From positions 20,939 to 84,938 of the forward strand of contig JBDWCD010000010.1 of assembly GCA_039977975.1 (NCBI GenBank): 64,000 nucleotides of DNA. Direction: 5' to 3'. The position numbers were made by a program, and so were the translations under genes. The first letter of the stretch is position 1. Each line of letters begins with the position of its first letter. Below the pieces are notes generated by a model. That model searched no databases. It was not told where the DNA came from and saw only the letters and a list, made by a program, of their open reading frames with translations. Below, in pieces: positions 3,710 through 53,795 of this stretch. Origin of the DNA: Rhizobiaceae bacterium. Lineage in GTDB: Bacteria > Pseudomonadota > Alphaproteobacteria > Rhizobiales > Rhizobiaceae.

Positions 3710-3735
3710 TTGCTTGTCCTCGCGGAATGGTGGCT

Positions 3736-4542: not shown

Positions 4543-4699
4543 TGATTAGTTCCGCAATTTATCCAGCTGCGCCATTTCTAGCACAATCTGGCGCAAGGCC
4601 CAGAGGCAGGCAGTGCTCTCCTGTCAGACATTGGTTCAATTTCCATCACAAACCTGAAAGGGTCTAAGGTGCAGCAAACACGCATCCAAGAGATAAGTC

Positions 4700-5455: not shown

Positions 5456-5466
5456 CGCCGGGTCCC

Positions 5467-5850: not shown

Positions 5851-5889
5851 GACATGTCCTTACGTTTGCAGCGGCGGTGTTCTGGTTGA

Positions 5890-6822: not shown

Positions 6823-6844
6823 GTCTGAAGTATCTCCCCGGCCT

Positions 6845-8646: not shown

Positions 8647-8900
8647 GAAGATTACACCTTTTTCGGTCTTGTTTGTTTGGTTGGGGGCGTTGAGGCGCCT
8701 GTTCGATTTCTGTGGCCACAATGGTCGATCACGGCGTGGCTTAACGCGGCGTTGGCAACGGCAATTGGCTCGGGGCTGAGCGGATATCTGGGACGGATGC
8801 CCGCTCAATTGCCTATTGAATGCCTCATGGCGGGTGAACATGCAACCGCCGTATTGGGTGGCTAAGCGGGCCGCTTCCGTCCGGATGAGGGCACATCAGA

Positions 8901-29761: not shown

Positions 29762-31987
29762 TTATTTGGACGTTGCCACGTAAACCCCGTCCCAATCCCG
29801 TCCGGGCGGATTGTCGGTAAATTCAATCACTCGGGTCTCATACATGAACAGGTAGGTATCGAGATCAATCTCAGCTTTCTCCGCCTGGTCCTGCATCAGT
29901 TCCAGCAGGGCGTTGGTGGCCTCCCAGTCCTGAGCCCGATAGGTGGCGAGCATCGATGTATTGAGCCGCTGCAATTCACGAAACTCTTCATTGGCCAACA
30001 TGTCGGCGTCACCAAACAGACCGTAAACCGTTTCCGGCTCCTGCTTGCCCTTCACCCGCAGCCGGTCAATTTCCAGTGTCGCCATTTCGTCCTGCACATA
30101 GACGGCGGTGTTCTGGCCAAGAATGATCAACACACCATAGGGTTTGGATTGACCTTCCAGGCGGGAGGCGAGGTTCACCGGGTCGCCGAGGCAGGTATAG
30201 TCAAAGCGCAGTTCACTGCCCATATTGCCGACAACGCAGTCACCGGAATTGATGCCGATGCCGATATTGATCTGGTGCAATGGCCCGCGTTCAGATTCGT
30301 TTTGAATGGCTTCCCATTCATCTTTCTTCTGCTTGTTGAGTTCGTCCACATCATTGAGCATTTTCAGCGCCGCGAGACAGGATGAGCGGGCGTGTTGTTC
30401 ATGAGGAACAGGGGCGTTCCAGAAAGCCATCACCGCATCGCCCATGAATTTGTCGATCGTGCCATTGTGCTTGAGGATCGCATTCGACAGCACAGTGAGA
30501 AATTCGTTCATCAAAACGGTCAATCCCTGGGGGTTTTCCTTAAAACTCTCAGAAATGGCGGTGAAACCACGCACGTCGCTGAACAGGATCGACAATTCGC
30601 GGGTTTCACCCCCCAAAGACAGGCCTTCGGGACTGTCCGCCAACTCGCTGACCAGGTCGGGGGAGACATATTGACCAAAGGCGCTGCGGATTTCCCGCCG
30701 TTTCTTTTCCTCGCGCAGATAGTTGAACGTTGCCAATATGATAAATATCACGATCACCGTCACCGATGGAAACACCGGATCAATCAGCAAGCGGTAATTG
30801 GCGAAGGCGTAATAGGAACTGGCCACATAGGAGACAACCACCACGGCAGCGAAGACAAAGGCCCAGGTGGCGTTGAGCAACGGCACAAAGGCGATGGCCA
30901 GCAGGCCAACGATGAGGATGGTCAGCAGTTCCACGGCGATGGCATAATTGGGCCGAACCAGCATCTGGTTGGTGAGGATGTTCTCAATCACCTGGGCATG
31001 GATTTCCACACCGGCCATCAGATTGCCCATGGGGGTGGCACGAAAGTCCTCAAGACCAATCGCCGAAGTGCCCACCAATATTAAGTGACCCTTCAGGCGG
31101 TTGGGTGGTATTTTGTCCTCAAGCACATCGACAGCGGATACAAATCGGGCAGGCACGTTGGGGGTGAAATAGGGCCAGACATGCGCTGTGCGGTCCGTAT
31201 TGACCAGGGTTCGGCCGATCTTCAGTGCGCTGACACCGGCTTCATCCGATTTGACCGCAAAGGCACGCCCGCCGGTGGCGACGCGCAAAATTTCCGCTGA
31301 CAGGCTCAGTCGCAGCTTGCCCTCGATCTGAAACAGCAGAGGTACATGGCGGAAAACCCCGTCGGCATCGGGAATAACCGTAAACACGCCGCGACCCAAG
31401 GTCGACTGTTCCAGCTCCGGCAGGTTTTGCACGATCGCCGGATAGTTTGGCAGGTAGGGACGGGGATCTTCGCCAAGATAGGCGTGTGGCATGTCTTCCA
31501 ATTCCGATGTCGCAGTGTCTCCCATATCACTGCGACGGCGGACGCTGGTCTGTCCCAGCACGATCCGCGATCGTTTGATGGCATCGGCAAATACCGAATC
31601 ATTTGACGGCAGATTCGACAGTGCCTGTTTCACTTCAGGGGACAAAGACTCGTTATCTTCGGCGATCTTTTCTGGGGACAATCTGTCCGGCTCTGCAAAA
31701 ACAATATCGAATCCGACCACAACGGCCCCCGCAGCCATCAATTTGTCGACCAGAGCGGCGACTTTGGTGCGCGGCCAGGGCCACTGGCCCAATTTGCGAA
31801 TGCTTTCCTCGTTGATGTCCAAAATTGAGACGGGCAGGGGCTGATAGACACGCGGTTTGACCCGCTGGTAAGCGTCAAAGGACTGGGCGCGAGACACTTT
31901 TACTGGCGTCGGATCCACAATGCGAATTGCCACGAGCCCAAAAAGAACCGCCAAGGCAACAAGTCGACCAATGCCAAATTTTCCCAC
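29762..31987 (-). CDS. CHASE2-domain class III adenylate cyclase
   Basis: CHASE2 region (DINEESI..LGQWPWPR, FDIVFAEPDR, GVEIHAQ) plus 3 TM segments; cyclase motifs FSDVRGFT, IDKFMGDAVMAFW, FDYT.LGD.VNLASRLE. The Lys and Asp specificity residues indicate ATP as substrate. Confidence 0.93.
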   Translation of the reverse strand: MGKFGIGRLVALAVLFGLVAIRIVDPTPVKVSRAQSFDAYQRVKPRVYQPLPVSILDINEESIRKLGQWPWPRTKVAALVDKLMAAGAVVVGFDIVFAEPDRLSPEKIAEDNESLSPEVKQALSNLPSNDSVFADAIKRSRIVLGQTSVRRRSDMGDTATSELEDMPHAYLGEDPRPYLPNYPAIVQNLPELEQSTLGRGVFTVIPDADGVFRHVPLLFQIEGKLRLSLSAEILRVATGGRAFAVKSDEAGVSALKIGRTLVNTDRTAHVWPYFTPNVPARFVSAVDVLEDKIPPNRLKGHLILVGTSAIGLEDFRATPMGNLMAGVEIHAQVIENILTNQMLVRPNYAIAVELLTILIVGLLAIAFVPLLNATWAFVFAAVVVVSYVASSYYAFANYRLLIDPVFPSVTVIVIFIILATFNYLREEKKRREIRSAFGQYVSPDLVSELADSPEGLSLGGETRELSILFSDVRGFTAISESFKENPQGLTVLMNEFLTVLSNAILKHNGTIDKFMGDAVMAFWNAPVPHEQHARSSCLAALKMLNDVDELNKQKKDEWEAIQNESERGPLHQINIGIGINSGDCVVGNMGSELRFDYTCLGDPVNLASRLEGQSKPYGVLIILGQNTAVYVQDEMATLEIDRLRVKGKQEPETVYGLFGDADMLANEEFRELQRLNTSMLATYRAQDWEATNALLELMQDQAEKAEIDLDTYLFMYETRVIEFTDNPPGRDWDGVYVATSK

Positions 31988-32249
31988 TTAACCAACCCAA
32001 ATGCTTCCTGGTCCCGGAAAAAACTCTAGGACTTGAAAAGCAAAACACAAGAAATCTTTACCATTTATTTACTTTTCTTTATTTTGTCAGCGGCTTGTGG
32101 TACCTGTTTCATTGGTTGGGTGCCGGTTGACTTTGATCAACCTCTTGGCTCCTTGGTTGGAATGTTTGAGGTCGCACTTGTTGCGCGTTGAGTAGGAGCC
32201 GTAAGTCTGTAGCTCGAATCTAAGTCAGTTTGGGTGGCCATGATGGCCA

Positions 32250-33680
32250 TTGCTGATTTCGGTGAACTTCTGCAGCCGCAATGTAATGTATAGTAAGCGC
32301 CCCTTCATAATGTCAGTGCTGTCCCTGCTATTGGTCAGCGTCGCCCCGGCAAATGCCATGTCGTTGAAAACGGCGGTGGAAAAAGCCGTTACCGAAAATC
32401 CCAAGATTCGCGCAGCCCAGGCCAGCCGCAGGGCAACCGACCGCGTGTTGAGCCAGGCGAAACGCCGTTATCTGCCTGAAGTCAGCATCGACGGCGATTT
32501 CGGTATTGAGAAGGTCGACAAGCCGCAGGCCTTTGGTGTCAACGACAACGACCAGTGGCGGAATCGCAAACGCATTGCGCTCAACATCAAACAGACCCTG
32601 TTTGATGGCTTTGAACGGGCCAACAATGTCTATGAATCCCAGGCCCGCATTTCGGCCGCCGCCCACAAGATTTTGGCGCGTTCTGAAGTTGTCGCTCTCA
32701 ATGTTATTGAAGCTTATATCGACGTGCGTCGTCATGACCGGCTAATTTGGCTGGCCGGTGAGAATGTCAAACGGCACCGCAAATTGCTGGAAGTTGTGAA
32801 CACCCGTGTCGAAGGCGGAAAGACTTCAGACGGCGACCTGTTTCAAACCAGAGAACGGCTGCAGGCGGCCATCGCCCTTCGATCTCAGATCAAGCTGGTG
32901 CGCGCGGCAGCCGCTGCCAAATTCAAACGATCAGTCGGTATCGGACCACGTCGGTTGAACTCGGTGAAGATGGCCCGCAATCCATATCGCTCCTCTTCTG
33001 AAGCAATTACAGCGGCTATCAGCAAAAATTCCAGATTGGCGGCATTGCAGGACGAAATAGATTCCGCCGGTTTCCGCACCGACCGCTCTCGGTCTGAACT
33101 GTTTCCGGTTGTTACTCTTGAAGGGTCGGCCTCACGCGGTGAAGACCTGGACGGAACCAATGGTCGCGCCGACGAAATCAAGGGCATGGTTGTGCTGCGC
33201 TGGAAATTAATCGACGGCGGCGTGCGCCGTCAGCGGACCGAGGAACTGACCGAAAGAGAGTTTGTTAAAGTCTCTGAGTATGACGCCGCGGTGCGACAGG
33301 TTGGTGAGGAAATCGAGATTGCCTGGTCCAAGATTGTCGAAGGCGGGCGTCAGATTGCTGCCAAACGCCGTCAATTGGCTGAAACCGGAAAGGTTGTTTC
33401 CTCCTATCGCAAGGAATACGAAGCCAATAAACGCAGTTTGTTGGACGTTCTCGACGCTGAGAATTCGCGTTTTGCCGTTGAGTTCGACCTGTCCAATGCG
33501 AATTCCATTCGTTTGTTTTCAGGGTATGAACTTCTTGCCCAGACGGGTTCTCTGCTGCCTTATTTGGGCATTGCACGACCCAAGGGATCAGAAGTTGACG
33601 AAAGCATGTTCAGATCGACCAAAGGCAGTTCTTCGGGAAGCAACATGTTCAAATCATTTGTAATTCCGCCTCTTAGATAG
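32250..33680 (+). CDS. TolC-family T1SS outer-membrane protein (LapE/AggA-like)
   Basis: Signal peptide; SLKTAVEKAV..NP; QTLFDGF; W.LIDGG; RSLLDVLDAENSRF. The true start may lie 12-19 codons downstream. Confidence 0.9.
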   Translation: MLISVNFCSRNVMYSKRPFIMSVLSLLLVSVAPANAMSLKTAVEKAVTENPKIRAAQASRRATDRVLSQAKRRYLPEVSIDGDFGIEKVDKPQAFGVNDNDQWRNRKRIALNIKQTLFDGFERANNVYESQARISAAAHKILARSEVVALNVIEAYIDVRRHDRLIWLAGENVKRHRKLLEVVNTRVEGGKTSDGDLFQTRERLQAAIALRSQIKLVRAAAAAKFKRSVGIGPRRLNSVKMARNPYRSSSEAITAAISKNSRLAALQDEIDSAGFRTDRSRSELFPVVTLEGSASRGEDLDGTNGRADEIKGMVVLRWKLIDGGVRRQRTEELTEREFVKVSEYDAAVRQVGEEIEIAWSKIVEGGRQIAAKRRQLAETGKVVSSYRKEYEANKRSLLDVLDAENSRFAVEFDLSNANSIRLFSGYELLAQTGSLLPYLGIARPKGSEVDESMFRSTKGSSSGSNMFKSFVIPPLR

Positions 33681-33732
33681 GTGCCGGAATCGATCGAACC
33701 CGCACAGTCCCATCTAACTTCAGGCAAACCCA

Positions 33733-35937: not shown

Positions 35938-37249
35938 GGAGCTGGAATTTGCCAATGATCCCGCCGGAGCGGTGATCGCTACCACATCAACACCTGCATG
36001 GCGGGTGTTGCTGGCGATCGGCTGTCTGATATTTGTGGCGATTTACTGGGCCAGCGAGGCCGAAGTTGAGCAGGTCACGACGGGGCAGGGCAAGGTCATT
36101 CCGTCTCGTCAGATTCAAGCCGTCGAATCCTTCGAGCCAGGCATCGTGGCCGAAATCATGATCAAAGTGGGCGACAGGGTTTCACGAGGCCAGAGCCTGA
36201 TCCGCATCGATGACACCGGCGCCGCCTCCCGACTGGGCGAGTTGCGGCAGCGCCAGGCATCGCTGGCGGCAGAGAGAAACCGCCTGCGTGCCCAACTGAC
36301 CGGTGCTCAGACCTATGTGATCGAAGACGTTGAGGATGCCAATCTGCAGCGCTTTTATCTCGACCAGCAGGCCGTATTTGTGGCCAATCGCAGAAAGCTG
36401 GACGAACAAGCGGCGATCCGGCGTCAGCAATTGGCTCAGAAAGAACAGAGCCTGGCGGAGGCGATTGCCAGCACCAACAAGACATCGGGATTGTTGAACC
36501 TGGCTCGCAAGGAAGAAGAGCTGATTAAGCGGCTTTTTGCCAGGCGGGCGATTCCCGAGATCGACTTTATTCGCGTGCAGCGTGAAAGCGTCCAACTGGC
36601 CGGCGATCTGAAGATCTGGGAAGCCACCAAAGCACGCCTGCAGGCGGAGGTTGACGAGGCCCGCGCGCTGATCGGATCTGAGGAGGTCTCTTTTCGTTCC
36701 GAAGCCACCGCCAGACTGTCTATCGTCAACGCTGATCTGGCCATTGTGGAGCAGACTTTGAGAGCCGCCAGCGACACCGTCAGGCGTGCAATTTTGCGTT
36801 CTCCGGTCAACGGAATTGTCAACAAGGTTAACGTAGCGGCGGAAAATGAGGTGGTTCGGGCTGGTGACAGCGTGGTTGAAATCGTGCCAATCGATGACAT
36901 TTTGTTGATCGAAACCCAGATCAGACCGGAAGACATCGCCTTTATACGCGCCGGACTGAAAGCCACGATCCGAATCTCAGCATTTGACTATACCCGATAC
37001 GGAACCCTGCAGGGAACTGTCTTGAGAATCGGCGCAGACACCATAACCGACGAGAATCGTGAGACTTTTTACCAAATTGTGGTCAGTACCGACATCAAGG
37101 AAACGGTCCCCGGCGGGGCTGGTCAACTGGACATCATCCCCGGAATGGTGGCCACAGTTGACATTGCAACCGGCAAAAGATCGGTCCTGGAATATTTGAT
37201 GAAGCCGATACTGGTGATGAAGGACCGCGCTCTTAGAGATCCGCGTTAG
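35927..37249 (+). CDS. HlyD-family T1SS membrane fusion protein (LapC-like)
   Basis: GQGKVIPSRQIQAVESFEPG, long coiled coil, LRSPVNGIV, PEDIAFI, FDYTRYG, PGMVATVDI.TGKRSVLEYL.KP. Confidence 0.95.
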   Translation: MANEELEFANDPAGAVIATTSTPAWRVLLAIGCLIFVAIYWASEAEVEQVTTGQGKVIPSRQIQAVESFEPGIVAEIMIKVGDRVSRGQSLIRIDDTGAASRLGELRQRQASLAAERNRLRAQLTGAQTYVIEDVEDANLQRFYLDQQAVFVANRRKLDEQAAIRRQQLAQKEQSLAEAIASTNKTSGLLNLARKEEELIKRLFARRAIPEIDFIRVQRESVQLAGDLKIWEATKARLQAEVDEARALIGSEEVSFRSEATARLSIVNADLAIVEQTLRAASDTVRRAILRSPVNGIVNKVNVAAENEVVRAGDSVVEIVPIDDILLIETQIRPEDIAFIRAGLKATIRISAFDYTRYGTLQGTVLRIGADTITDENRETFYQIVVSTDIKETVPGGAGQLDIIPGMVATVDIATGKRSVLEYLMKPILVMKDRALRDPR

Positions 37250-37371
37250 CCATATGTAATCAATCGTCTTTTCACCGATGGACAATTTTACTGAATTATC
37301 ATAAGCTTTTGTTGGCACTTGGGGCAGAGCCATAGTTTTCAACCGACTACTTGTTCGGAGAAACTTGTGAT

Positions 37372-49300: not shown

Positions 49301-52300
49301 TCAACGGCACCAACAGCCTACCGGTGGTAACCAGCGACACCAATCCGACACCGGTTCTGACTGAAACCGACGCCGGTTTGATGACAAGTGGCGTCATCAG
49401 TTTTGCCGATGTGGACACTACCGATATTGTCACCGTTTCGACGCCGGTGAGCTTTGCCAGGGGTGGAGACGTGGCCGGAATTCCGGTAAGCGACGCTCAA
49501 CTGACTGCGATGTTCTCGCTTGCGTCCACTTCAGCAATTACCGATACGCAGACCACCGGCACAGTCGGATGGACGTTTAATTCTTCAACGCATCCCGCTG
49601 CCTTCGATTATCTGGCAGTCGGCGAAAGCCTGGAACTGACCTATACCGTGACTTTCGCCGATGACAGCGGTTCCGGCGATCAAACTCACGATGTTTTCAT
49701 CACCATTAACGGCACAAATGATGGTCCCGAATTCACCGCAGTTATTGGAGATGACACGCCGGACTTCACCGAGGGCCCGGTTCCGGCCTCCGCCAGCGGT
49801 TCGTTTGTGTTTACCGACGCTGATGCATCGGATGTGGTGACGATCACCGAAGTGCGGGTGATGACAGGCCTGGTCGACAATGATGGCGCCACACCGAACG
49901 CGACAGCACTGCTCGGCATGTTGAATGCGGTTACTGCCGTGGATAATTCGGGAGCTGAACCGGTCCACACGGTCGACTGGACGTTCACGCCAGGCACCAC
50001 TTTCGAATATCTGGCCGACGGCGAGATGCTGACGATCAACTACGAGATCATTATCGACGATGACAATGGCGGTACCGCCAGCGAGAACGTTGCCGTGACG
50101 ATCATCGGAACCAATAGTGCGCCGATTGTCAGCGCCCTGACCGATGTTGATGAAACACTTTCGGAAACGTCTCCGTTGAACACCACCGGTTCCTTCGAAC
50201 TGACCGATGTGGATACGACAGACGAAGTCAGCATCGATAGTGTGGACGTTGTCACGTCAGGTGATGATGGTGATCTGGCAACGCCATTGCCAGCAGCCCT
50301 TGGCCCGATGTTTGTTACCCAACTTGGTACGGTCATCGATGGTGCGTCGAACACTGGGGTCGTCAACTGGTCGTTCAACGCCAATGGGGAAACGTTTGAC
50401 TATCTGGCTGTCGGCGAAACGTTGACCATCGATTACACGGTGAACTTCTCCGATAACCATTCGACACCAGCGACCGGATCACAACTTGTCCGCATCATGA
50501 TCACCGGAACAAACGATCTGCCGGTGATTACCGCCACTACCAACGCGACACCAACGCTGATCGAAACCAATGCAACGCTGGTGACTGACGGATCGATCGA
50601 CTTTGCAGACGCCGACACCAGCGATGAAGTGACGATTACCAATGTTGCGGTGGTTGAGTCGGGTGCGATTGCCGATCTTCCACCGGGTCTCGATCTCGGC
50701 GCAATGTTCAGCCTGGTTTCGACAGATGCGGTTGCTGTCGGTGCCAATACAGGCACTGTTGAATGGGATTTCAGTTCCGGCGCAGAAGTGTTCAACTATC
50801 TGGCCGTTGGTGAAAGTCTGGTTCTCACCTACACGCTCACCTTCAGCGATGGCACCGTTGCGGGAACATTCACCGAAGATGTGGTTATCACCATCAATGG
50901 CACCAATGATGGCCCGACCATCTCCAACGTCAGCGGTGACACTTTTGCCATGTCTGAGGGGACTTTGGCCCCGGTCATCGGAGACTTCGACGTCACCGAC
51001 CTGGATGTGTCAGATGTCGTTTCCGTCCGCGAAGTGCTGCTGGAAACATCCGAGCTGGACGGAGCGCAGGCAACGCCAGACACAATCGATCTGATTGCGA
51101 TGTTCACGCTGGTGCCCGGCAATGCGATCGAGGACACCACCACGACAGGTGATGTTAACTGGACCTTCAACCCTGGCAGCGAGACATTTGAATATCTTTC
51201 CGTCGGTGAAAGCCTGGTTCTGACCTATACGATTGTCCTGGAAGACCATAATGGCGCAACGGTCAGCCAGAATATCGAAATCACCATCAATGGCAGCAAC
51301 AATGCGCCAACGATCACTGCGACGACCTTTGTCAGCGACACGATGGACGAGACCGACGGCGTGCTGGCAACCTCTGGCTCATTCGATATCCAGGACGTCG
51401 ACACAACCGACGAAGTGACCGTTTCCGACGTCGAAGTCCTGACCGATGACATCACCGGATTGGTGCCATCCGATATTGACTTGCTGGCGATGTTCTCACC
51501 GGATTCAGGGCAGTTGGAAATCGATGGCGATAATATCGATGGAACCGTTTTCTGGGCCTTCAATGCCGGTACTGAGGCTTTTGACTATCTGGGCGATGGT
51601 GACAGTCTTGAACTTACCTATCGGTTGACCATTGAGGACGACAACGGCGAATTCACCAAGCAGGATGTGGTCCTGACCATTAACGGCACCAATGACAGTG
51701 CAGTCATTGGCGGTGATCTCACAGGAGCCGCCGCCGAAGACAGCGGCATAATTCTGACTGGCAGAGTTACAGCCACCGATCTTGATAATCCCGACAATAT
51801 GTTTGTAGCCGACTCTGGGGACGCCACCTTTGGCAGCTATACCATCGATGTGGACGGCAACTGGACTTATACGCTGGATGACGGCAATCCACTGGTTGAC
51901 GGGCTGACCTTGGTCAGTGATGCGATCACCGATAGCTTCACCGTAACTTCAGAAGATGGCACAACAGAAACTGTTGAAATCAGCATCACCGACGATCCAC
52001 TGGTGGGTACACCGGCTGGTGAAACCATCATAGGTGGTCTGAATGACGATATCATTCTGGGGGGTGCCGGTGGTGACACGCTGTTCGGCGCAGCCGGCAA
52101 AGATTTGCTCAATGGTGGTGAAGGCAATGACTTTTTGCAAGGCGGTGGCGGTGCCGATATCTTCCAGTTTACCGATCTGAACCTTTCACTCGACGAGGTG
52201 GTGGACTTTGAATATGAGGTCGACAGCTTGGATTTGGACGCCTTGTTGGATGCGGGCATGACCGCGACTGTGAGTGAAACTGAGTCCGGTGGCCAGGTCA

Positions 52301-52440
52301 CGGGTGTTTCGATATTCGTAGAGGAGACGCCTGGATCTCCAACCCAGATTGCTGATGTTACATTTGCCACTTCAATTGACAGTGCCACATTCGACAGCGA
52401 AGCATTGTTTGCGGCAAATAACGGGGCGGTGACATCCTGA
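37372..52440 (+). CDS. Giant T1SS-secreted RTX/VCBS adhesin (~5,022 aa)
   Basis: Uninterrupted 15-kb ORF with a GGAG RBS before the ATG at 37372. No signal peptide; strongly Asp/Thr/Gly/Val-rich and depleted in Lys/Arg/Cys. FecR-like N-terminus, VCBS-type repeats, C-terminal RTX nonapeptides; directly follows the T1SS genes. Confidence 0.93.
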   Translation: MAVGNNTSGGTLPQSIRGDSTDSTRVVEADEGRLIIDNPELLFLGDFERQGDDLSISYGGETNLVIGYFANGTPANLEALNGAYLTAQAVNSLTGDPTAGQYAQAGGGGEPLQIGKVVKLEGSASTTSVSGTKNELEVGSPVFQGDVVETGADSSLGISFVDETVFSMSSDARMILDELIYDPANVENSSMAFNLVQGAFVFVTGEIAPTGNMAIETPVATMGIRGTTPRVVVNTALGVTEFTILPDPGSENVGSYTIVNKATGAIMGSVTAVADKWVVTGAFSDAVKITKSGLDLLEDQLALDEITDIFNRAASDRAELDGSTNYTNVAIDLSGGDDGEAGDDLAGDDGGTDVSVGVEDTPNQDDPPIAFDDDLFTDDSSPITVNLNVITGNNGQGVDIDPEGFPIILTQINGRNLSFVDGEAKFILPSGAVIKVTNNGGITYFPNEAYKFLGLGNVDIDQFEYTIQDQGGQTDRGVISVSLTGRNQQPLVLNVGSRDLSDTVIEGDDTGNAAPSLIAAGQLVISDPDASDQHSSVVVSDSVSWEKSDGTTDTSLGEVGSVALDLQESMQDDSPNLVFDLIQTNPPQPGVYGPLVSRPEEIRGTVDWTWTGSEADIDFLGVGEILTLVYEVTVTDDSGVGGGSEPASVTQLITIVLVGTNDGPTISSIVNASPDRDENELGPTIGSFEVTDVDVTDVVSITDVRLVSAENDGNQETPDPADLLDMFSPRSGDTISSGATVGTVNWQFTPNGETFDYLADGESLELTYAITLDDGKGGTVTQDIVVTINGLNDDPFTSDETDVDDSLSEISSLKTAGSFEVTDLDTSDTVSISGVTVATSEDDSDSALPNNGVLLAMFTPQSGTIIDDGSTVGVVNWSFNANGSNFDYLSSTEQLVLTYTVTFEDNSAAGASQATQLVEITITGTNSDPIVTGSTIAVSPLIETNDPLITTGTISFADTDTSDVVSITQIDVTTAGDTAGLTATLPQLDAMFTPQTATAVAGGANTGTVNWTFDSSTLPTAFNYLAVGESLVLNYEVTFSDNGGSGALTHNVAVTINGTNDGPTITATNGELQTRAEGSTATTTGSFSVEDLDHTDVVTVSQVKLITDLNDADEATPDHAALLAMLNVNAGDPVIANGATTGTVNWIFDPDGFPAPGTPDPELFSYLADGEELELTYEVTVTDSNGGSDTQQIVITVVGGNNAPQAASDSDAFDEGDTLATSGSIIVTDLDTSDVVSFDPSGVTVAVDGTYAGVDPLTMFTPTSGDVIGDKSTSGTIEWSFNAGGQSFEYLASGQEVEFTYTLPLTDGNSGAAAPTVVITITGTDDDPFVSAETGSAQSQFGEPTTPALAGSFTISDVDTTDSVNIGEITDGAAAGTVTVTTSGPLNSGGEPTVDKLADLLSFGATPVGTDNPNTVNWTFEVPAVDNPFEYLGLGESLELTYSVPYSDSGVPTGTSDVHEIVITVHGTNSGPVIVEADSGPNVISATIDEDAALTAVGKFGVEDANITDVLTISEVRLITSGADGHEATPDHADLLAMFSTVNNTPTTNEINWNFNAVDPDAFDYLSGITEDLILTYTVVLEDGKGGRITEDVVITINGVNNVTTVDNRTNSGLALNETEGGLMTMGSFDVHDVDTSDIIAITGVSVDTAGTSAGVVYPPGTNITTLLEGMFSQQSSAVISNTANDGTVNWAFNAGHDAFDFLAAGQDLVATYTVTLTGGVTETVVITISGTNDLPFVSATGVVDATLSETSLLSSSGTFDVTDVDLPDVVSVDTITVTTSGDVGGTAPNGVPDGTALLAMFSTTSSTAVAAGTDTGTVAWDFDGTTTANAFEYLAAGESVVLTYHVPFSDADGGGSQDIVITVTGTNDLPFVSATGTVTDTLSESSPLLSTGTFDVTDVDTSDEVSVDAITVVPSGDLGGVPSNAALLAMFSTVSAIAVTDTQDVGTVTWNFDGTTTPGAFDYLAAGESLLLTYTVALDDGNGGTTSQNVTITVDGVNEGPALATTGNVVSAGLTEGGMLMANGVFGVTDSDTSNTVQTLNSGADLVTVSAVGDIGTLTNADLLNMFTPEIGTIVDGTSNSGTASWSFNAGDETFGYLSDGETLVVTYSIPVEDSTGASFMQSVDITITGVNNAPSVIANPLFASAFDGLAAQDTGGAGNPYVTQLLTNDGANNFVVTQPGTPAVRASDIALGDFDNDGDLDAFTGVYFGDGQLMINQGGAQGGVEGVFNTSTFVQGSLNSLGGFDPTYTLDVEIGDVTGDGFVDILIANWNGQANQLLTNDGAGGFAVSVLPGGSLSTRDIRLGDIDADGDLDAILTTDNGTNQLLTNLGGTQGGTEGTFAASFLPSAVNQLASLSVGIDIGDVNGDGHLDVLIASTLDQNELLLGNGAGGFTTGVLAGGNRDSTSIRLGDLDGDGDLDAFVTNIDGQANQVLINQGGTQGGTLGTFVASDVAGGNQNSSAVTLVDVDQDGDLDAIVSNNDYSPIVDQTNKLLINDGTGVFTAITLPDGNMPTNNIAIGDLDGDGTVAAVNADGLPNLYSGLNVGILVPELAATLTETGAGLSTSGSFLVSDGDAGETISLTAGLAVSESGTTAGLGLNNAQLLALFSPAIAANQVDWTFDSSAQGNAFDYLNSGESLVLTYTVPFQDNSGSATAAGAQDVVITINGINDVIAYAAPDASPTTGQFVIEAGDDDAGTPTLGTPAAAGGTFATANPADPATVVWTQTSATDTYGSFTLDAAGNWGYSIDNALGVTEALSENQVETETLEGSVTYNEVKTTSFSIAVTETNLGDILIEPVDEFPAVDLAFDGVFTHLTESESAGTITVIGTNGTLELTVATGAWTFTPFGGAPASYSENFDFDYAYTSTTTHTEPVSQTVDVHGTNDGPEIVLGPTDTVISGSVTEDAGTPTTVSGGLSATDDDSDASLVWTVDNGFGAFGNLVVNDTNDGWTYTLDDSNPIVNGLAAGDPALTDTFNLRVTDNHGATQTQVVTITINGADDQPVFNVAASDLSGTVVEQDENIVATPVFGGIAGLTVDPTSDFSLANAQIETGTSSDATDNVVNGPVGSLLAYTATGLTSGEGSAPGHPGFGGTDYDLFNLNDGDANSAGGDGFHAIPNAGANSLVLDLGSEQTIYSIAIYNGYTNRDDGTYTLKDGDGNILGNWTISGTPLPGAPNNPVHSFWLTFDQPVTTDTLVFDTTTTDFDGGQHTNSYREIEIYGVPPLTESGEIAFNDVDTDVALLTVGTITASVGALGVLEATIDAPDSEIDWSYSVQLEDIQYLAHGETKVETFEIPLFDGTNTVTETVTITLKGTNDDPFVSSTGVISGILGEDSSLAAAGSFQVTDVDLLDTVSTGAVTVAATGVTDGMPAATQTALASMMMPVTGTSVIDGSTTVGTVNWSFDGSGSSFDYLANGESLILTYTIPFTDGMGGDGSQEVVITITGADDATSVTNTATPLNLDETEGALGPFAGSFTVDDDDVSGLVIISDVNVTTTGSTATALPADILTILDGMFTATPETVIDGTSVMGTVNWTFDAGTDAFDFLGVGEVLTANFTVQMIGATDQTIVVNITGTNEAPLVSMADNAGDLLTDEGRNLVETDSALTTSGSFEITDLDVTDTVDVGAVVVATTSGTTTGLPINTDLANMLVPTPTTDVVDGSSTTGTVDWTFTSGAADFDYLAAGQTVTIVYTIPFTDGNAAGSETVTITVKGTNDVPTITGVTGDEQTMVESATAVLEGTIGVSDVDITDAVSISDVQLVTTGNDGDPATPTPAILLGMFTPKTGIEVASGSTTGTIDWDFDPGSNNFDYLAPGEDLVLTYTIVLDDGNGGTVSEEVEITIQGGNNGPTVSVQTDVAETFTEAPDLQTTGSFVLSDLDTSDVVMVTGVTVAAVESNPVALNPATPLLADLDDMFVPQSATIVDGVSNTGTVFWSFNANGESFAYLADGESLVVTYSVAYQDDNLATGSQDVTITINGTNSLPVVTSDTNPTPVLTETDAGLMTSGVISFADVDTTDIVTVSTPVSFARGGDVAGIPVSDAQLTAMFSLASTSAITDTQTTGTVGWTFNSSTHPAAFDYLAVGESLELTYTVTFADDSGSGDQTHDVFITINGTNDGPEFTAVIGDDTPDFTEGPVPASASGSFVFTDADASDVVTITEVRVMTGLVDNDGATPNATALLGMLNAVTAVDNSGAEPVHTVDWTFTPGTTFEYLADGEMLTINYEIIIDDDNGGTASENVAVTIIGTNSAPIVSALTDVDETLSETSPLNTTGSFELTDVDTTDEVSIDSVDVVTSGDDGDLATPLPAALGPMFVTQLGTVIDGASNTGVVNWSFNANGETFDYLAVGETLTIDYTVNFSDNHSTPATGSQLVRIMITGTNDLPVITATTNATPTLIETNATLVTDGSIDFADADTSDEVTITNVAVVESGAIADLPPGLDLGAMFSLVSTDAVAVGANTGTVEWDFSSGAEVFNYLAVGESLVLTYTLTFSDGTVAGTFTEDVVITINGTNDGPTISNVSGDTFAMSEGTLAPVIGDFDVTDLDVSDVVSVREVLLETSELDGAQATPDTIDLIAMFTLVPGNAIEDTTTTGDVNWTFNPGSETFEYLSVGESLVLTYTIVLEDHNGATVSQNIEITINGSNNAPTITATTFVSDTMDETDGVLATSGSFDIQDVDTTDEVTVSDVEVLTDDITGLVPSDIDLLAMFSPDSGQLEIDGDNIDGTVFWAFNAGTEAFDYLGDGDSLELTYRLTIEDDNGEFTKQDVVLTINGTNDSAVIGGDLTGAAAEDSGIILTGRVTATDLDNPDNMFVADSGDATFGSYTIDVDGNWTYTLDDGNPLVDGLTLVSDAITDSFTVTSEDGTTETVEISITDDPLVGTPAGETIIGGLNDDIILGGAGGDTLFGAAGKDLLNGGEGNDFLQGGGGADIFQFTDLNLSLDEVVDFEYEVDSLDLDALLDAGMTATVSETESGGQVTGVSIFVEETPGSPTQIADVTFATSIDSATFDSEALFAANNGAVTS
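37711..38230 (+). other. FecR-like / retention-module-like domain of the adhesin
   Basis: IGKVVKLEG..GSPVFQGDVVETGADSSLGISFVDETVFSM...LVQGAFVFVTG...IETPVATMGIRGT. Domain boundaries are approximate. Confidence 0.8.
43939..44952 (+). repeat. Seven FG-GAP repeats (probable 7-bladed beta-propeller)
   Basis: GDFDNDGDLD, GDVTGDGFVD, GDIDADGDLD, GDVNGDGHLD, GDLDGDGDLD, VDVDQDGDLD, GDLDGDG. Confidence 0.85.
46441..47040 (+). other. Discoidin/F5-8 type C (CBM32-like) domain inserted in the adhesin
   Basis: LNDGD...LVLDLGSEQTIYSIAIYN..R...TFDQPVTT..L...SYREIEIYG pattern. Confidence 0.6.
52006..52440 (+). repeat. RTX Ca2+-binding nonapeptides and C-terminal T1SS secretion signal region
   Basis: GGLNDDIIL GGAGGDTLF GAAGKDLLN GGEGNDFLQ GGGGADIFQF, then D.VVDF....D.LDL..LL. 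Confidence 0.92.
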
Positions 52441-53795
52441 TGCAACGACGGTTATTGGGCCATGTCGGTAGGGGCGTATTGGCGCTTGTGTTGATCACCT
52501 GTTTGAGTCTGACAGCCAGAGCGGCCAACAATGAGGCTGTTGGCTTGGCGCTCAAGGAATTGATTTCAAATCCAAATTTGAAAACCGGATCGGCTACCGC
52601 TGACGCAAATATCGCTGATATCAAAGCCTTTTATGCCAGCCGCAGTTTCAAGCCGATCTGGAGCCGCGACACCGGTCCCAAGGGCAAGGCCAAGGCGCTT
52701 CTGGGAGAGCTGAAAGCATCCACCGTCCATGGCCTGTTGCCGGACTTCTACGGGGTTGGCGAAATCGCAAATCTGATGAAAAGTCTGGAACCCGCCGACC
52801 TGGCGCGCATGGATTTTCTATTCTCCGGCGCGCTGGTGGATTTCAGCCATGACCTGCTCAACGGTCGGCTGACCAATCTGGCAAGCTATGAGCGCAACCG
52901 CGTTGACCCGGTCCGACTGGACCCGGCTGCACTCATTGAAAAAGCTGCAGCGGCCGGCAATCTGCGCACCATGTTGGCTGAGATTGTAGGCGATGACCGG
53001 CGTTACCTGCGGCTGGTCGCCAAAATGATTGAATATGTGCGTCTGGAACAATCCCGCCACTGGCCGACAAAGATCGGCAAAGCGGATTTCGCCAAACTGC
53101 GCCGCCTGTTGGCACTGACCGGCGATTTGCCCTTTGATCAGATGACTAAGAAGGGTCCCATTGATGCCACGCTCAGCGACGCTATCCGTTCCTATCAGGG
53201 GCGCATGGGTCTGCAGGCTGACGGCAAGCTGGGACCCGCAACTCTGGAAGAGCTGAACACGCCGTTAAGCGCGCGCATTCAGCGCATCAAAGTCAATCTG
53301 GAACGCCGCCGCTGGCAAAACCGCGCCACCGATCAAAAACTGTTCTACCTGAACATGGTTGATGGGCAGTTGAAGCTGACCATCAATGACAAGACCCGAG
53401 CTTTGACCGGTGTATCACTGGGCGAGGCACAGCATAAACTGCCGACCTTTTATGGCACGATCACCGGTGCCAGATCATCGGATTCAAATGGGCAGGGCAA
53501 TGTTGAGCTGGTTTACGATGCCGGCGAGAGTGCTGGTGATGGTCTGCGTTTCGGCAGTCTGGTGCTGAACGATGGCAATCAAGGCGCCATCACTTTGCTG
53601 GAAGAAGCCATCGATGCCACTGACAAAGCCGCATTGGCAGAATTCAAGTCGAATGGCGGCGAGTTGAAACTCGCCAGGCCCATCGACCTGTTTGTCACCT
53701 ATCTGACCGTTTGGGCGACTCGCAACGGCAAGATTCAGTTTCGCCCGGACATATTTCAGCGCGACGCCAAAGTCATTGATGAACTGGGGCTTTAG
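52440..53795 (+). CDS. YcbB-type L,D-transpeptidase homologue lacking the catalytic motif
   Basis: Signal peptide; scaffold FYASRSFKPIW..HGL.P..Y; PG-binding AIRSYQGRMGLQADGKLGPATLEELN; NLERRRW; C-terminal TYLTVW...G.IQFRPDIFQRD. No HxxxxxxxSHGC motif and no Cys in the mature protein. Confidence 0.8.
   Translation: MQRRLLGHVGRGVLALVLITCLSLTARAANNEAVGLALKELISNPNLKTGSATADANIADIKAFYASRSFKPIWSRDTGPKGKAKALLGELKASTVHGLLPDFYGVGEIANLMKSLEPADLARMDFLFSGALVDFSHDLLNGRLTNLASYERNRVDPVRLDPAALIEKAAAAGNLRTMLAEIVGDDRRYLRLVAKMIEYVRLEQSRHWPTKIGKADFAKLRRLLALTGDLPFDQMTKKGPIDATLSDAIRSYQGRMGLQADGKLGPATLEELNTPLSARIQRIKVNLERRRWQNRATDQKLFYLNMVDGQLKLTINDKTRALTGVSLGEAQHKLPTFYGTITGARSSDSNGQGNVELVYDAGESAGDGLRFGSLVLNDGNQGAITLLEEAIDATDKAALAEFKSNGGELKLARPIDLFVTYLTVWATRNGKIQFRPDIFQRDAKVIDELGL

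What the first reader, a model, noticed from the sequence alone, without database searches (positions are those of the whole stretch)
29762..53795. CHASE2 adenylate cyclase + T1SS + FecR-headed giant adhesin + dead L,D-transpeptidase: possible cAMP-based analogue of the Lap adhesion system
Seen: the CHASE2 cyclase is transcribed divergently, across ~260 bp, from tolC-ABC-hlyD-adhesin-LDT-like. The window contains no LapD (GGDEF/EAL) or LapG (transglutaminase-like protease) gene. Established: LapA-type adhesins are held in the TolC pore by a periplasmic N-terminal retention module controlled by c-di-GMP through LapD/LapG; CHASE2 cyclase genes are frequently neighbours of FecR-domain genes. Inference: the FecR-like head stays in the periplasm as the plug and could be the ligand of the periplasmic CHASE2 domain. 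Adhesin display, tension or release would then be reported inward as cAMP, with the dead LDT as a wall-bound scaffold. This would be an outside-in surface-sensing module built on a T1SS adhesin.
Basis: partly seen in the sequence, partly recalled or inferred. Interest (0 to 1): 0.8.

Follow-up and report, generated by a model that had tools for sequence, protein, structure and literature searches.

The report
Adhesin exporter wired to cAMP cyclase
A marine Rhizobiaceae bacterium keeps a giant exported surface adhesin, its type I secretion machine and a membrane cAMP-making sensor together. The adhesin's FecR-fold head is the most likely partner of that sensor, which would give the orphan CHASE2 domain a candidate ligand and link adhesion to cAMP.

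Summary
The six genes are real and sit at the stated coordinates. They are a CHASE2 class III adenylate cyclase, TolC, an LssB-type ABC exporter, HlyD, a 5022-aa RTX/VCBS adhesin and a catalytically dead YcbB-like L,D-transpeptidase.

The adhesin head is a true FecR fold (AF2 pLDDT 87; Foldseek hits to FecR-type anti-sigma domains). Its first half is homologous to the MpIBP "cell surface anchoring" retention domain.

The cyclase-T1SS-adhesin link is not chance.
- It is kept in all 7 close relatives.
- In a 401-genome alphaproteobacterial sample, 26-27 of 52 genomes with such FecR-headed giant proteins (about 20 GTDB families) have a CHASE2 cyclase beside the adhesin or its T1SS genes. In at least 9 loci it is the translationally coupled gene after hlyD.
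- The head family and CHASE2 co-occur across genomes (odds ratio 107).
- All three CHASE2 proteins of this genome have a FecR-domain neighbour.

- The genome holds two LapG-family proteases, though I found no LapD.
- The dead transpeptidase is a clade-specific add-on.
- In three other families a LapG-like protease and an HD-GYP-type (Pfam HD_5) membrane protein sit in the same cluster as the cyclase.

Direct head-CHASE2 contact and the direction of signalling remain inferred. I found no paper describing this link.

The parts
29762..31987 (-). CHASE2 receptor adenylate cyclase, 741 aa. TM1 at about aa 5-25, periplasmic CHASE2 at about 26-345, three TM helices at about 346-426, class III cyclase domain at about 460-660.
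   Evidence: Pfam CHASE2 E 4.6e-54 and Guanylate_cyc E 5.4e-21. The hydropathy scan supports the N-terminal TM (window 1-29) and the 346-426 cluster; it also flags a weaker hydrophobic stretch at aa 76-98 inside the CHASE2 domain, which I do not read as a membrane span. The catalytic domain aligns to P. aeruginosa CyaB 3R5G (E 1e-31) with the metal Asp residues, substrate Lys, Asn and Arg kept.
31988..32249 (.). Divergent intergenic region of 262 bp. It holds a block conserved among close relatives (AAAACACAAG.AAATCTTTACC ... TGTGGTAC, about 32040-32105).
   Evidence: Sequence and alignment with 6 relatives. No sigma-70-like site was found. No match to the Clr-box consensus, which I recalled from memory.
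32250..33680 (+). TolC-family outer membrane channel of the T1SS.
   Evidence: TIGR01844 227.6 bits, above the cut-off; Pfam OEP.
33733..35937 (+). T1SS ABC permease/ATPase, LssB type, with a weak C39-like N-terminal domain.
   Evidence: TIGR03375 799 bits; Peptidase_C39 E 0.0026, below the cut-off.
35927..37249 (+). HlyD-family periplasmic adaptor of the T1SS.
   Evidence: TIGR01843 345 bits.
37372..52440 (+). Giant RTX/VCBS adhesin, 5022 aa from the ATG at 37372 (GGAGAA lies 9 nt upstream). An open TTG lies at 37351.
   Evidence: One open frame. Pfam and NCBIfam hits: FecR, Big_9, VCBS, Cadherin_4, FG-GAP_3, HemolysinCabind.
37438..37656 (+). N-terminal 'prefix' beta domain (aa 23-95). Its motif (...vPgg.fLL.AdF.R.G.DL.L...dYF) is conserved in this family of T1SS adhesins.
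   Evidence: AF2 model, pLDDT above 90. Alignment of 42 heads. The head domain starts about 105-140 aa into most of the large ORFs.
37708..38241 (+). FecR-fold head (aa 113-290). Its first half is homologous to the LapA/MpIBP-type retention ('cell surface anchoring') domain. I propose it as the periplasmic plug and the CHASE2 partner.
   Evidence: Pfam FecR E 1e-7. PDB 5IX9: E 2.7e-7 with the single sequence and 2.3e-12 with the profile. Foldseek: 4M0H, 4M0N, 6OVK (FecR-type anti-sigma domains) and 5IX9 at rmsd 0.8 A.
38038..38052 (+). GIRGT motif (aa 223-227), with G226/T227 in a hairpin turn. It matches the Gly-Thr self-cleavage dipeptide of FecR/FoxR in sequence and in its place near the end of the FecR domain.
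   Evidence: G223, R225 and T227 are invariant and G226 is at least 90% conserved in 42 T1SS-type heads. GT occurs in 131 and GS in 6 of 142 family members. E. coli FecR cleaves at G181/T182 (PMC12036975). Cleavage is not shown for this protein.
44143..44808 (+). FG-GAP/VCBS propeller-like block in the middle of the adhesin. It may be a ligand-binding region.
   Evidence: Pfam FG-GAP_3, several stretches, E 3e-15 and 6e-9.
52084..52164 (+). RTX nonapeptide repeats ahead of the C-terminal T1SS secretion signal.
   Evidence: Pfam HemolysinCabind E 5e-8; serralysin/RTX C-terminal hits in NCBIfam.
52440..53795 (+). Catalytically dead YcbB/LdtD-like protein, 451 aa. It has a signal peptide, a scaffold domain, a PG_binding_1 domain and a vestigial catalytic domain. 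Its start overlaps the adhesin stop (TGATG).
   Evidence: Pfam Scaffold E 2.8e-24 and PG_binding_1 E 1e-7, with no YkuD hit. PDB YcbB matches cover only the PG-binding and C-terminal pieces. Alignment with three active paralogues shows loss of HDTP, S[SH]GC and about 80 aa, and the orthologues show the same loss.

Best explanation
The locus encodes a type I secretion system (TolC, LssB-type ABC, HlyD) and its cargo, a 5022-aa RTX adhesin.

Proposed mechanism:
1. The adhesin is exported C-terminus first.
2. Its N-terminal FecR-fold head folds before export ends. Like the homologous LapA/MpIBP retention domain, it stays on the periplasmic side of the TolC channel and tethers the adhesin to the cell.
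3. That head is the protein partner of the periplasmic CHASE2 domain of the divergently encoded adenylate cyclase.
4. The state of the adhesin (displayed, loaded, or lost) therefore sets cAMP synthesis. One or more of the genome's 11 cNMP-binding proteins would read the cAMP.
5. The dead L,D-transpeptidase is a lineage-specific periplasmic peptidoglycan-binding accessory.

Shown here: gene identities, an intact cyclase active site, the FecR fold and the retention-domain homology of the head, and a wide, conserved genomic coupling of CHASE2 cyclases to T1SS genes and FecR-headed T1SS cargo.

Inferred: periplasmic retention, direct head-CHASE2 binding, and the direction and sign of the signal.
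For: - Domain calls. Cyclase catalytic residues are kept.
- Head structure: AF2 pLDDT 86.9, pTM 0.81. The best folds are FecR-type anti-sigma periplasmic domains 4M0H/4M0N/6OVK and the MpIBP 'cell surface anchoring domain' 5IX9. Sequence match to 5IX9 is E 2.3e-12.
- Synteny of cyclase and tolC in 7/7 close relatives, and with ABC-hlyD-adhesin head in all 4 with enough flank.
- Class-wide sample: 26-27 of 52 genomes with a T1SS-type FecR-headed large ORF have a CHASE2 gene next to the adhesin or its T1SS genes, in about 20 GTDB families. I estimate 1-2% by chance, from about 2-3 CHASE2 genes per roughly 4-Mb genome.
- Three more genomes have the cyclase beside unlinked T1SS genes.
- The CHASE2 cyclase follows hlyD at -3 to +12 bp in 9 loci.
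- Head family versus CHASE2 across 401 genomes: 133/139 versus 45/262, odds ratio 107, p 5.5e-58.
- All three CHASE2 genes of this genome have a Pfam-FecR neighbour. For this cyclase the only one nearby is the adhesin head.
- On a CHASE2 tree, the T1SS-linked cyclases cluster apart from the clade of small-FecR/NsrA-like-linked ones, which holds this genome's own paralogue.
- Precedent: S. meliloti NsrA is required for CyaK activation by an external protein signal (PMC7529298). On pSymB a FecR-domain ORF abuts a CHASE2 cyclase. LysM-FecR plus CHASE2 kinase operons occur in Burkholderiales (PMC5192318).
Against: - There is no physical or expression evidence. Multimer modelling was not available.
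- About half of the genomes with such adhesins have no CHASE2 gene next to them. Of 20 CHASE2 genes chosen away from T1SS-type heads, 15 had neither a FecR-like nor a T1SS neighbour detectable with my HMMs. Adjacency is therefore frequent, not obligatory.
- Co-operonic placement would also fit a cyclase that regulates secretion or expression rather than one that reads the adhesin.
- The fold match to full FecR domains is modest (TM 0.33 normalised to the query, 0.52 to the target).
- The retention_LapA NCBIfam model hits below its cut-off.
- The phyletic odds ratio is not corrected for phylogeny.
Confidence: 0.55

Rival explanations
1. Inside-out or co-regulation only. The CHASE2 domain senses some other envelope or environmental cue. 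cAMP then controls expression or activity of the T1SS/adhesin operon. The FecR-fold head is just a retention plug that never touches the cyclase.
For: The cyclase is divergent from, or co-operonic with, T1SS genes. It is sometimes beside T1SS genes whose cargo is encoded elsewhere (L187, L194, L195). The genome has 11 cNMP-binding proteins that could act on promoters.
Against: This reading does not explain the very strong genome-level coupling of this FecR family with CHASE2 (OR 107). It also does not explain why every CHASE2 gene of this genome has a FecR-domain neighbour. The S. meliloti precedent has an outer-membrane-associated protein, whose presumed gene encodes a FecR domain, upstream of the cyclase. 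No match to the Clr-box consensus I recalled was found in the intergenic region.
Confidence: 0.25
2. An ordinary Lap-type system. The adhesin is held by its retention head and released by one of the genome's two LapG-family (BTLCP) proteases. The cyclase is peripheral.
For: There are two BTLCP genes in the genome, one on the same contig. BTLCP co-occurs with T1SS-type FecR heads (33/52 versus 93/349, OR 4.8). In three families BTLCP plus a dCache-PAS-HD_5 membrane protein are clustered with T1SS, RTX proteins and the CHASE2 cyclase.
Against: I found no LapD (PF16448 gave no hit, though the controls were silent). This genome has no homologue of the HD_5 protein. No di-alanine site is conserved after or before the head: RAAS is not kept in relatives, and the consensus of 42 heads has none. 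The BTLCP genes here are unlinked, and one sits in a PilZ/PAS_5 triad. Six of the 27 genomes with a CHASE2-adjacent adhesin lack any BTLCP.
Confidence: 0.12
3. Chance neighbourhood. The cyclase and the T1SS/adhesin operon are unrelated genes that happen to be adjacent.
For: They are on opposite strands in this genome. The flanking genes (GCS2, Usp) are unrelated.
Against: The adjacency recurs in about 20 families, with translational coupling to hlyD in 9 loci. I estimate about 1-2% adjacency by chance.
Confidence: 0.02

Closest known systems
Lap system of Pseudomonas fluorescens (LapA adhesin, LapEBC T1SS, LapD/LapG) and the MpIBP adhesin of Marinomonas primoryensis
   Same: A giant repeat-rich RTX adhesin is encoded next to its TolC/ABC/HlyD exporter. 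The N-terminal domain is homologous to the solved MpIBP 'cell surface anchoring' (retention) domain 5IX9. LapG-family proteases exist in the genome.
   Different: - The head is a complete FecR fold preceded by a prefix of about 100 aa. It is not a short N-terminal module.
- There is no conserved di-alanine LapG site.
- I found no LapD.
- The membrane signalling protein encoded with the system is a CHASE2 adenylate cyclase, which makes cAMP, rather than a c-di-GMP receptor.
NsrA-CyaK (and CyaD1/CyaD2) receptor adenylate cyclase signalling of Sinorhizobium meliloti
   Same: A CHASE2 class III cyclase in the inner membrane is paired with a FecR-domain protein associated with the outer membrane. 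On pSymB a FecR+TPR ORF ends where a CHASE2 cyclase starts. NsrA is needed for CyaK activation by an external protein signal (PMC7529298). smc02177, a target gene of the cAMP-dependent regulator Clr, also encodes a FecR domain (PMC5498481).
   Different: Here the FecR domain is the head of a T1SS-exported 5022-aa adhesin rather than of a Sec-exported receptor. The link to the outer membrane would be through the TolC channel. The cue would be the state of the cell's own adhesin rather than a host protein. Identity to the pSymB cyclase is only about 33%.
FecR/FoxR/PupR cell-surface-signalling anti-sigma factors
   Same: They share the periplasmic fold (Foldseek 4M0H, 6OVK) and a Gly-Thr dipeptide near the end of the FecR domain. 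In FecR the chain self-cleaves at that dipeptide, and TonB-driven force later separates the two pieces (PMC12036975).
   Different: This protein has no N-terminal anti-sigma domain, no TM helix, no sigma factor and no TonB-dependent transducer. The domain is fused to an adhesin. Self-cleavage has not been shown for it.
LysM-FecR / CHASE2 histidine kinase operon of Burkholderia (BiofilmReg) and PA4035-PA4036
   Same: A periplasmic FecR-domain protein is encoded next to a CHASE2 sensor, and the operon is linked to biofilm formation (PMC5192318).
   Different: The output there is a histidine kinase, not a cyclase. The FecR protein is small and binds peptidoglycan through LysM. No secretion system or adhesin is involved.
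YcbB/LdtD L,D-transpeptidase of E. coli
   Same: The gene at 52440-53795 keeps the scaffold domain, the PG_binding_1 domain and the C-terminal strand motif.
   Different: The catalytic His and Cys motifs and about 80 residues of the YkuD domain are missing. The orthologues show the same loss.

Membership tests
LapA-type T1SS adhesin system (Lap) | Adhesin encoded with its dedicated TolC/ABC/MFP type I exporter; C-terminal RTX/T1SS signal | tested here: met
   TIGR01844, TIGR03375 and TIGR01843 are above their cut-offs. HemolysinCabind lies at the C-terminus.
LapA-type T1SS adhesin system (Lap) | N-terminal retention module | tested here: inconclusive
   The head is homologous to the MpIBP anchoring domain 5IX9 (E 2.3e-12; rmsd 0.8 A). 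The NCBIfam retention_LapA model scores 20.8 bits against a cut-off of 50. The module is internal (aa 113 onward), not at the extreme N-terminus.
LapA-type T1SS adhesin system (Lap) | Di-alanine LapG cleavage site next to the retention module | tested here: not met
   The only AA near the head (RAAS) is not kept in 3 of 4 close relatives. The consensus of 42 heads has no conserved AA.
LapA-type T1SS adhesin system (Lap) | LapG (BTLCP, Peptidase_C93) periplasmic protease | tested here: met
   There are two family members in the genome: C10:964-1563 at 227 bits and C6:226419-227531 at 79 bits. Neither is in the window or linked to a T1SS.
LapA-type T1SS adhesin system (Lap) | LapD (LapD_MoxY_N-HAMP-GGDEF-EAL c-di-GMP receptor) | tested here: inconclusive
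   PF16448 gave no hit in the genome, but it rang in none of the 14 control genomes either. A manual look at 10 EAL/GGDEF ORFs found none with LapD-like topology.
FecR-domain partner / CHASE2 sensor pair (NsrA-CyaK type) | Inner-membrane protein with periplasmic CHASE2 and a cytoplasmic class III cyclase with intact catalytic residues | tested here: met
   Pfam CHASE2 184 bits and Guanylate_cyc 75 bits. Topology. Alignment to CyaB 3R5G keeps the metal Asp residues, Lys, Asn and Arg.
FecR-domain partner / CHASE2 sensor pair (NsrA-CyaK type) | FecR-domain protein encoded next to the CHASE2 gene | tested here: met
   The adhesin head carries Pfam FecR and lies 5.4 kb away in the divergent operon. 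No other FecR-family member lies on this contig. The same pairing holds for the other two CHASE2 genes of the genome and on S. meliloti pSymB.
FecR-domain partner / CHASE2 sensor pair (NsrA-CyaK type) | Partner reaches the periplasm by Sec and is anchored by its own outer-membrane part | tested here: not met
   The adhesin has no signal peptide. It has a conserved prefix of about 110 aa and a C-terminal RTX/T1SS signal instead.
FecR-domain partner / CHASE2 sensor pair (NsrA-CyaK type) | Cyclase activity depends on the FecR-domain partner | not testable with these tools
   This needs cAMP measurements in mutants or in a reconstituted system.
FecR/FoxR-type self-cleaving periplasmic domain | FecR fold | tested here: met
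   Foldseek prob 1.00 to 4M0H, 4M0N and 6OVK; E 9e-6 to 2e-4. Pfam FecR is above its cut-off.
FecR/FoxR-type self-cleaving periplasmic domain | Gly-Thr dipeptide at the cleavage position, and actual N-O acyl self-cleavage | tested here: inconclusive
   G[IV]RG[TS] is near-invariant: GT or GS in 137/142 members. Equivalence to FecR G181/T182 is inferred from the Pfam profile position, not from a direct alignment. Cleavage itself is not testable here.
YcbB/LdtD L,D-transpeptidase | YkuD catalytic domain with conserved His and Cys (HDTP ... S[SH]GC) | tested here: not met
   Both motifs and about 80 aa are deleted here and in 4 orthologues. Three paralogues in the same genome keep them.

The most novel reading that the evidence does not exclude
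The FecR-fold head is a self-cleaved, force-sensitive plug. Like E. coli FecR, it cuts its own chain at the invariant Gly226-Thr227 while folding in the cytoplasm, and the two halves stay together by beta-sheet complementation. The plug tethers the adhesin under TolC. Tension on the 5000-residue stalk pulls the C-terminal half out. That pull releases the adhesin without any protease and leaves the N-terminal fragment behind, or changes the surface of the plug. The periplasmic CHASE2 domain reads this as a change in cAMP synthesis. This would be a bacterial counterpart of GAIN-domain adhesion receptors: a mechanosensor built from a T1SS adhesin. It would also give CHASE2 a ligand, namely the state of a FecR domain.
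Probability: 0.15. Interest if true: 0.95.

Novelty: new variant of a known kind. Interest (0 to 1): 0.78.

Why it matters
Pfam still lists the cue sensed by CHASE2 as unknown, as quoted in a 2016 paper (PMC5192318). Tethered T1SS adhesins are so far known to be controlled from the inside, by c-di-GMP through LapD/LapG.

This locus, and its counterparts in about 20 alphaproteobacterial families, suggest two things:
- The FecR-fold retention head of a T1SS adhesin is the protein partner of a CHASE2 adenylate cyclase.
- A bacterium may therefore read the state of its own surface adhesin as cAMP.

If true, this gives a concrete, testable ligand for CHASE2. It also links two second-messenger worlds: in some lineages the same cluster carries a LapG-like protease and a membrane protein with an HD_5 domain, an HD-GYP-type domain associated with c-di-GMP hydrolysis. 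And it extends the S. meliloti NsrA-CyaK paradigm to adhesion. The near-invariant Gly-Thr motif adds a testable protease-free release or force-sensing step.

Tried and rejected
- **Clr/CRP box in the 262-bp divergent region.** The pattern HGTYHCNNNNGRWACA, recalled from memory, with up to 1 mismatch gave no site there. The window-wide count (9) is below chance. No sigma-70-like promoter or terminator was found either.
- **LapD.** PF16448 gave nothing, but the controls were silent. Manual inspection of 10 EAL/GGDEF ORFs found no LapD-like topology.
- **LDT-like gene as a conserved part.** My HMM found it only in this genome's paralogues and in 5 of 7 close relatives. It is absent from all distant loci.
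- **'Every CHASE2 gene has a FecR neighbour' as a universal rule.** This holds in this genome (3/3). But only 2 of 20 CHASE2 genes sampled away from T1SS-type heads had a detectable FecR-like neighbour with my locally built HMM, and 3 more had T1SS genes. The local HMM misses divergent FecR domains: it scored the C18 one at only 1e-6.
- **A 765-aa ORF next to BTLCP in L116.** It turned out to be a wrong-strand, Arg/Pro-rich artefact of a high-GC genome. The real neighbour is on the same strand in a different frame and is a dCache-PAS-HD_5 homologue.
- **Literature.** Searches for CHASE2 with type I secretion/adhesin, with RTX, and for retention module with FecR gave nothing relevant. Garnerone et al. 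2018 (NsrA) is not held in the library.
- **Multimer modelling of head plus CHASE2.** The tools do not offer it.

Full report
**1. The observation**

The window is G000:C10:20939-84938. The closest public relatives are Rhizobiaceae MAGs.

- 29762-31987(-) is a 741-aa protein with CHASE2 (E 4.6e-54) and a class III cyclase domain (E 5.4e-21).
- 32250-33680(+) is TolC (TIGR01844).
- 33733-35937(+) is an LssB-type T1SS ABC exporter (TIGR03375, 799 bits) with a weak C39-like N-terminal domain.
- 35927-37249(+) is HlyD (TIGR01843).
- 37351/37372-52440(+) is one open frame of 5029/5022 aa. It has Pfam FecR at aa 146-231, Big_9, VCBS and cadherin-like repeats, an FG-GAP block and C-terminal RTX repeats.
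- 52440-53795(+) has the YcbB scaffold and PG_binding_1 domains but no YkuD domain.

The cyclase and tolC are divergent across 262 bp. The flanking genes are unrelated: GCS2 on one side; Usp, an aspartyl protease and CobS on the other.

**2. The cyclase**

Hydropathy supports one N-terminal TM helix and a cluster of three TM helices at about aa 346-426, which would place aa 26-345 in the periplasm and the catalytic domain in the cytoplasm; a weaker hydrophobic stretch at aa 76-98 lies inside the CHASE2 domain. The catalytic domain aligns to P. aeruginosa CyaB (3R5G, E 1e-31). It keeps both metal-binding Asp residues (FSDVRGFT, GDAVMAFW), the substrate Lys (IDKFMGD) and the Asn/Arg of GDPVNLASRLE. 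I read it as an active adenylate cyclase. The genome encodes 11 cNMP-binding proteins, none in the window. It also has many other cyclase-domain ORFs.

**3. The adhesin head**

The single sequence, and more strongly a profile of 42 heads, match one PDB entry. That entry is 5IX9, the N-terminal 'cell surface anchoring domain' of the Marinomonas ice-binding RTX adhesin (E 2.7e-7 and 2.3e-12).

An AlphaFold2 model of aa 1-347, built on that alignment, is confident (pLDDT 86.9, pTM 0.81). It has three parts:
- a beta-rich prefix domain (aa 23-95);
- a beta-sandwich (aa 113-290);
- a long helix (aa 293-322), followed by an acidic linker.

Foldseek against the PDB returns five hits with E at or below 0.001:
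- three chains of a putative FecR-type anti-sigma factor (4M0H A/B, 4M0N);
- the PupR cell-surface-signalling domain (6OVK);
- 5IX9, at rmsd 0.8 A and 37% identity over 62 columns.

The head is therefore a complete FecR fold. Its first half is the same module that tethers LapA/MpIBP-type adhesins. The NCBIfam retention_LapA model hits only below its cut-off.

**4. The Gly-Thr motif**

Within the head, TPVATxGIRGT is the most conserved stretch. G223, R225 and T227 are invariant and G226 is at least 90% conserved in 42 T1SS-type heads. Across 142 members of the wider family, the dipeptide is GT in 131 and GS in 6. In the model it lies in the turn between strands 220-225 and 228-234.

E. coli FecR cleaves itself between Gly181 and Thr182 in the cytoplasm. 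The two fragments stay associated during export. TonB-dependent force later separates them (PMC12036975). FoxR does the same by an N-O acyl shift (cited there).

I confirm its conservation. I could not test cleavage, nor make a direct alignment to FecR.

**5. Is the cyclase linked to the T1SS and adhesin?**

*Close relatives.* All seven relatives (67-84% identity on the cyclase) keep cyclase-tolC. The four with enough flank keep ABC-hlyD-adhesin head.

*Distant relatives.* I searched 401 evenly drawn alphaproteobacterial genomes with the 213-aa head. 139 had a match, many in ORFs of 1000-6900 aa. I pulled 120 neighbourhoods and scored them with HMMs iterated from this locus.

The head-bearing proteins fall into three types:
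- Large RTX proteins with a prefix of about 105-140 aa before the FecR domain. This is the T1SS type, as here.
- Proteins of about 900-950 aa with a signal-peptide-like start (NsrA-like).
- Small periplasmic proteins of 200-500 aa.

All three types occur next to CHASE2 cyclases.

*Counts for the T1SS type.* A CHASE2 gene was in the pulled region for 18 genomes. A Pfam CHASE2 search of 36 further genomes, with extra regions, added 9 genomes where the cyclase lies just past the adhesin 3' end or the T1SS genes. The total is 26-27 of 52 genomes, in about 20 GTDB families. With about 2-3 CHASE2 genes per roughly 4-Mb genome, I estimate chance adjacency at about 1-2%. Three more genomes have the cyclase beside T1SS genes while the FecR-headed cargo is encoded elsewhere (L187, L194, L195).

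*Operon position.* In 9 loci the cyclase gene follows hlyD at -3 to +12 bp, so it is the fourth gene of the T1SS operon. The Pfam CHASE2 search of the 401-genome sample lists hits at places that fall inside the CHASE2 ORFs my local HMM called in these loci. Pfam also confirms FecR in five distant heads.

**6. FecR-CHASE2 coupling in general**

Across the 401 genomes, 133 of 139 head-positive genomes have CHASE2, against 45 of 262 head-negative ones. The odds ratio is 107 and Fisher p is 5.5e-58, not corrected for phylogeny.

In this genome all three CHASE2 proteins have a Pfam-FecR neighbour:
- a 270-aa FecR protein directly upstream of a CHASE2-GGDEF-EAL protein (C18);
- a 319-aa FecR protein directly upstream of a paralogous CHASE2 cyclase (C23);
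- the adhesin head for the cyclase studied here.

On a tree of 56 CHASE2 domains, a well-supported clade (SH-aLRT 99) holds most of the small-FecR and NsrA-like-linked cyclases, including the C23 paralogue. T1SS-linked cyclases cluster elsewhere: 12 label changes against 19.1 in shuffles, with 2 of 500 shuffles as low. The window's cyclase is nearest to T1SS-linked ones. This fits old, partner-specific pairs rather than recent chance neighbours.

The rule is not universal. Of 20 CHASE2 genes chosen away from T1SS-type heads, 2 had a FecR-like neighbour and 3 had T1SS genes by my HMMs.

**7. Literature**

- CHASE2 cyclases CyaD1/D2/K of S. meliloti need the outer-membrane-associated NsrA to respond to an external protein signal (PMC7529298; PMC13001267).
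- The Clr-target gene smc02177 encodes a FecR domain (PMC5498481).
- On pSymB I found a FecR+TPR ORF that ends exactly where a 649-aa CHASE2 cyclase starts. I take this to be nsrA-cyaK, but the NsrA paper is not held.
- Burkholderiales and P. aeruginosa carry LysM-FecR plus CHASE2 kinase operons tied to biofilm (PMC5192318).
- Searches for CHASE2 with type I secretion/adhesin, CHASE2 with RTX, and retention module with FecR gave nothing relevant.
- Earlier notes of this scan describe a T1SS operon with a CHASE2 cyclase as fourth gene in Micavibrio-like bacteria (e1-2083887) and TPS-FecR-CHASE2 modules. My class-wide sample agrees with the first of these.

**8. LapG and LapD**

The genome, however, has two LapG-family (BTLCP) genes:
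- C10:964-1563 (227 bits) lies about 20 kb before the window start, in a triad with PilZ and PAS_5 proteins.
- C6:226419-227531 scores 79 bits.

PF16448 (LapD N-terminal domain) found nothing, but it also rang in no control genome. None of 10 EAL/GGDEF ORFs looks like LapD.

The adhesin has no conserved di-alanine site. RAAS after the head is AQ, SR or AQ in three of four relatives, and the 42-head consensus has none.

At class level, BTLCP occurs in 33 of 52 genomes with T1SS-type heads against 93 of 349 others (OR 4.8). It occurs in 21 of the 27 genomes with an adjacent CHASE2.

In three families (L114/L116, L202/L205, L203/L204) one cluster holds BTLCP, a dCache-PAS-HD_5 (HD-GYP-type) membrane protein of about 740 aa, and the CHASE2 cyclase. 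L202-L205 also hold T1SS genes, and an RTX protein was confirmed in L202 and L203; L114/L116 instead hold a FecR-headed adhesin, with no T1SS genes detected. This genome has no homologue of that HD_5 protein.

So a Lap-type protease pair and the CHASE2 cyclase can coexist. The cyclase is an added signalling arm, not simply a replacement for LapD/LapG. Whether the orphan BTLCPs cut this adhesin is open.

**9. The dead transpeptidase**

Three paralogues in the genome keep HDTP and S[SH]GCVR. The gene at 52440-53795 and four orthologues lack both motifs and about 80 residues between them. They keep the signal peptide, scaffold, PG-binding domain and C-terminal strands.

The orthologue follows the adhesin, with Usp after it, in 5 of 7 close relatives. 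It is missing in two of them and in every distant locus where the adhesin end was in view. It is a lineage-specific accessory, plausibly a peptidoglycan-binding scaffold. Its role is speculative.

**10. Mechanism**

*Most likely (0.55).* The adhesin is exported C-terminus first. The FecR-fold head folds early and stays under TolC as in LapA/MpIBP. There it contacts the periplasmic CHASE2 domain, so that adhesin state sets cAMP output.

- Shown: identities, folds, an intact active site, conserved coupling.
- Inferred: retention, contact, direction.

*Rivals.*
- A purely regulatory inside-out link (0.25).
- An ordinary Lap-type release by the orphan BTLCPs, with a peripheral cyclase (0.12). This one could coexist with the main model.
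- Chance (0.02).

*Boldest reading not excluded (0.15).* The head self-cleaves at G226/T227 like FecR and acts as a force-sensitive plug whose separation both releases the adhesin and switches the cyclase.

**11. Verdict**

The system combines two known kinds: a retention-module T1SS adhesin and a FecR-domain/CHASE2 cyclase pair. The searchable literature does not describe this combination, and it is widespread in Alphaproteobacteria.

Noticed in passing
L202 (G208:C22:11000-26161), L203, L204, L205; also L114, L116: A conserved cluster in three alphaproteobacterial families. In L202-L205 it holds T1SS ABC-HlyD, a CHASE2 cyclase, TolC, an FGE-sulfatase-like protein, a dCache-PAS-HD_5 (HD-GYP-type) membrane protein of about 740 aa, a BTLCP (LapG-family) protease and, in L202 and L203, RTX proteins. 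L114/L116 share the cyclase, the HD_5 protein and BTLCP beside a FecR-headed adhesin. It looks like a Lap-type control pair with an HD-GYP-type protein in LapD's place, plus the cyclase.
   Followed up: partly
G000:C17:205197-207580 (same genome, outside the window): A fourth FecR-family protein (321 aa, with a very acidic C-terminal tail) is encoded directly after a TPR/SlipAM-like (surface lipoprotein assembly modifier) outer-membrane protein. There is no CHASE2 gene nearby.
   Followed up: partly
G000:C10:964-3358 (about 18-20 kb before the window start): A high-scoring BTLCP/LapG-family protease sits next to a PilZ-domain protein and a PAS_5 protein. The triad has no LapD and no T1SS.
   Followed up: partly
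L200 (Ensifer sp. PDNC004 plasmid NZ_CP070354.1, 754123-763392): A CHASE2 cyclase is divergent from TPR, a FecR-domain protein, an NHLP-bacteriocin HlyD, two ABC exporters and a cNMP-binding protein, with Nif11-like precursor genes nearby. This is another export system paired with FecR/CHASE2.
   Followed up: no
L201 (S. meliloti pSymB NZ_CP021823.1, locus 3183-8791): A FecR+TPR ORF (up to 1219 aa) ends at the start codon of a 649-aa CHASE2 cyclase. This is presumably nsrA-cyaK. The record carries no annotation here.
   Followed up: partly
window 32040-32105: A block in the cyclase/tolC intergenic region (AAAACACAAG.AAATCTTTACC ... TGTGGTAC) is conserved in six close relatives while its surroundings vary. 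It may be an operator for an unknown regulator.
   Followed up: partly
L046 / L102 (G222:C27): Three FecR-headed RTX genes (863-1099 aa) lie in tandem next to one ABC-HlyD pair, with no CHASE2 gene on that 38-kb contig.
   Followed up: no
L113, L120, L124 (about 910-935 aa ORFs): NsrA-like proteins have a signal-peptide-like start and an N-terminal FecR domain. The rest is largely without Pfam hits, apart from one TbpB-like beta-barrel hit. Each lies directly beside a CHASE2 cyclase.
   Followed up: partly
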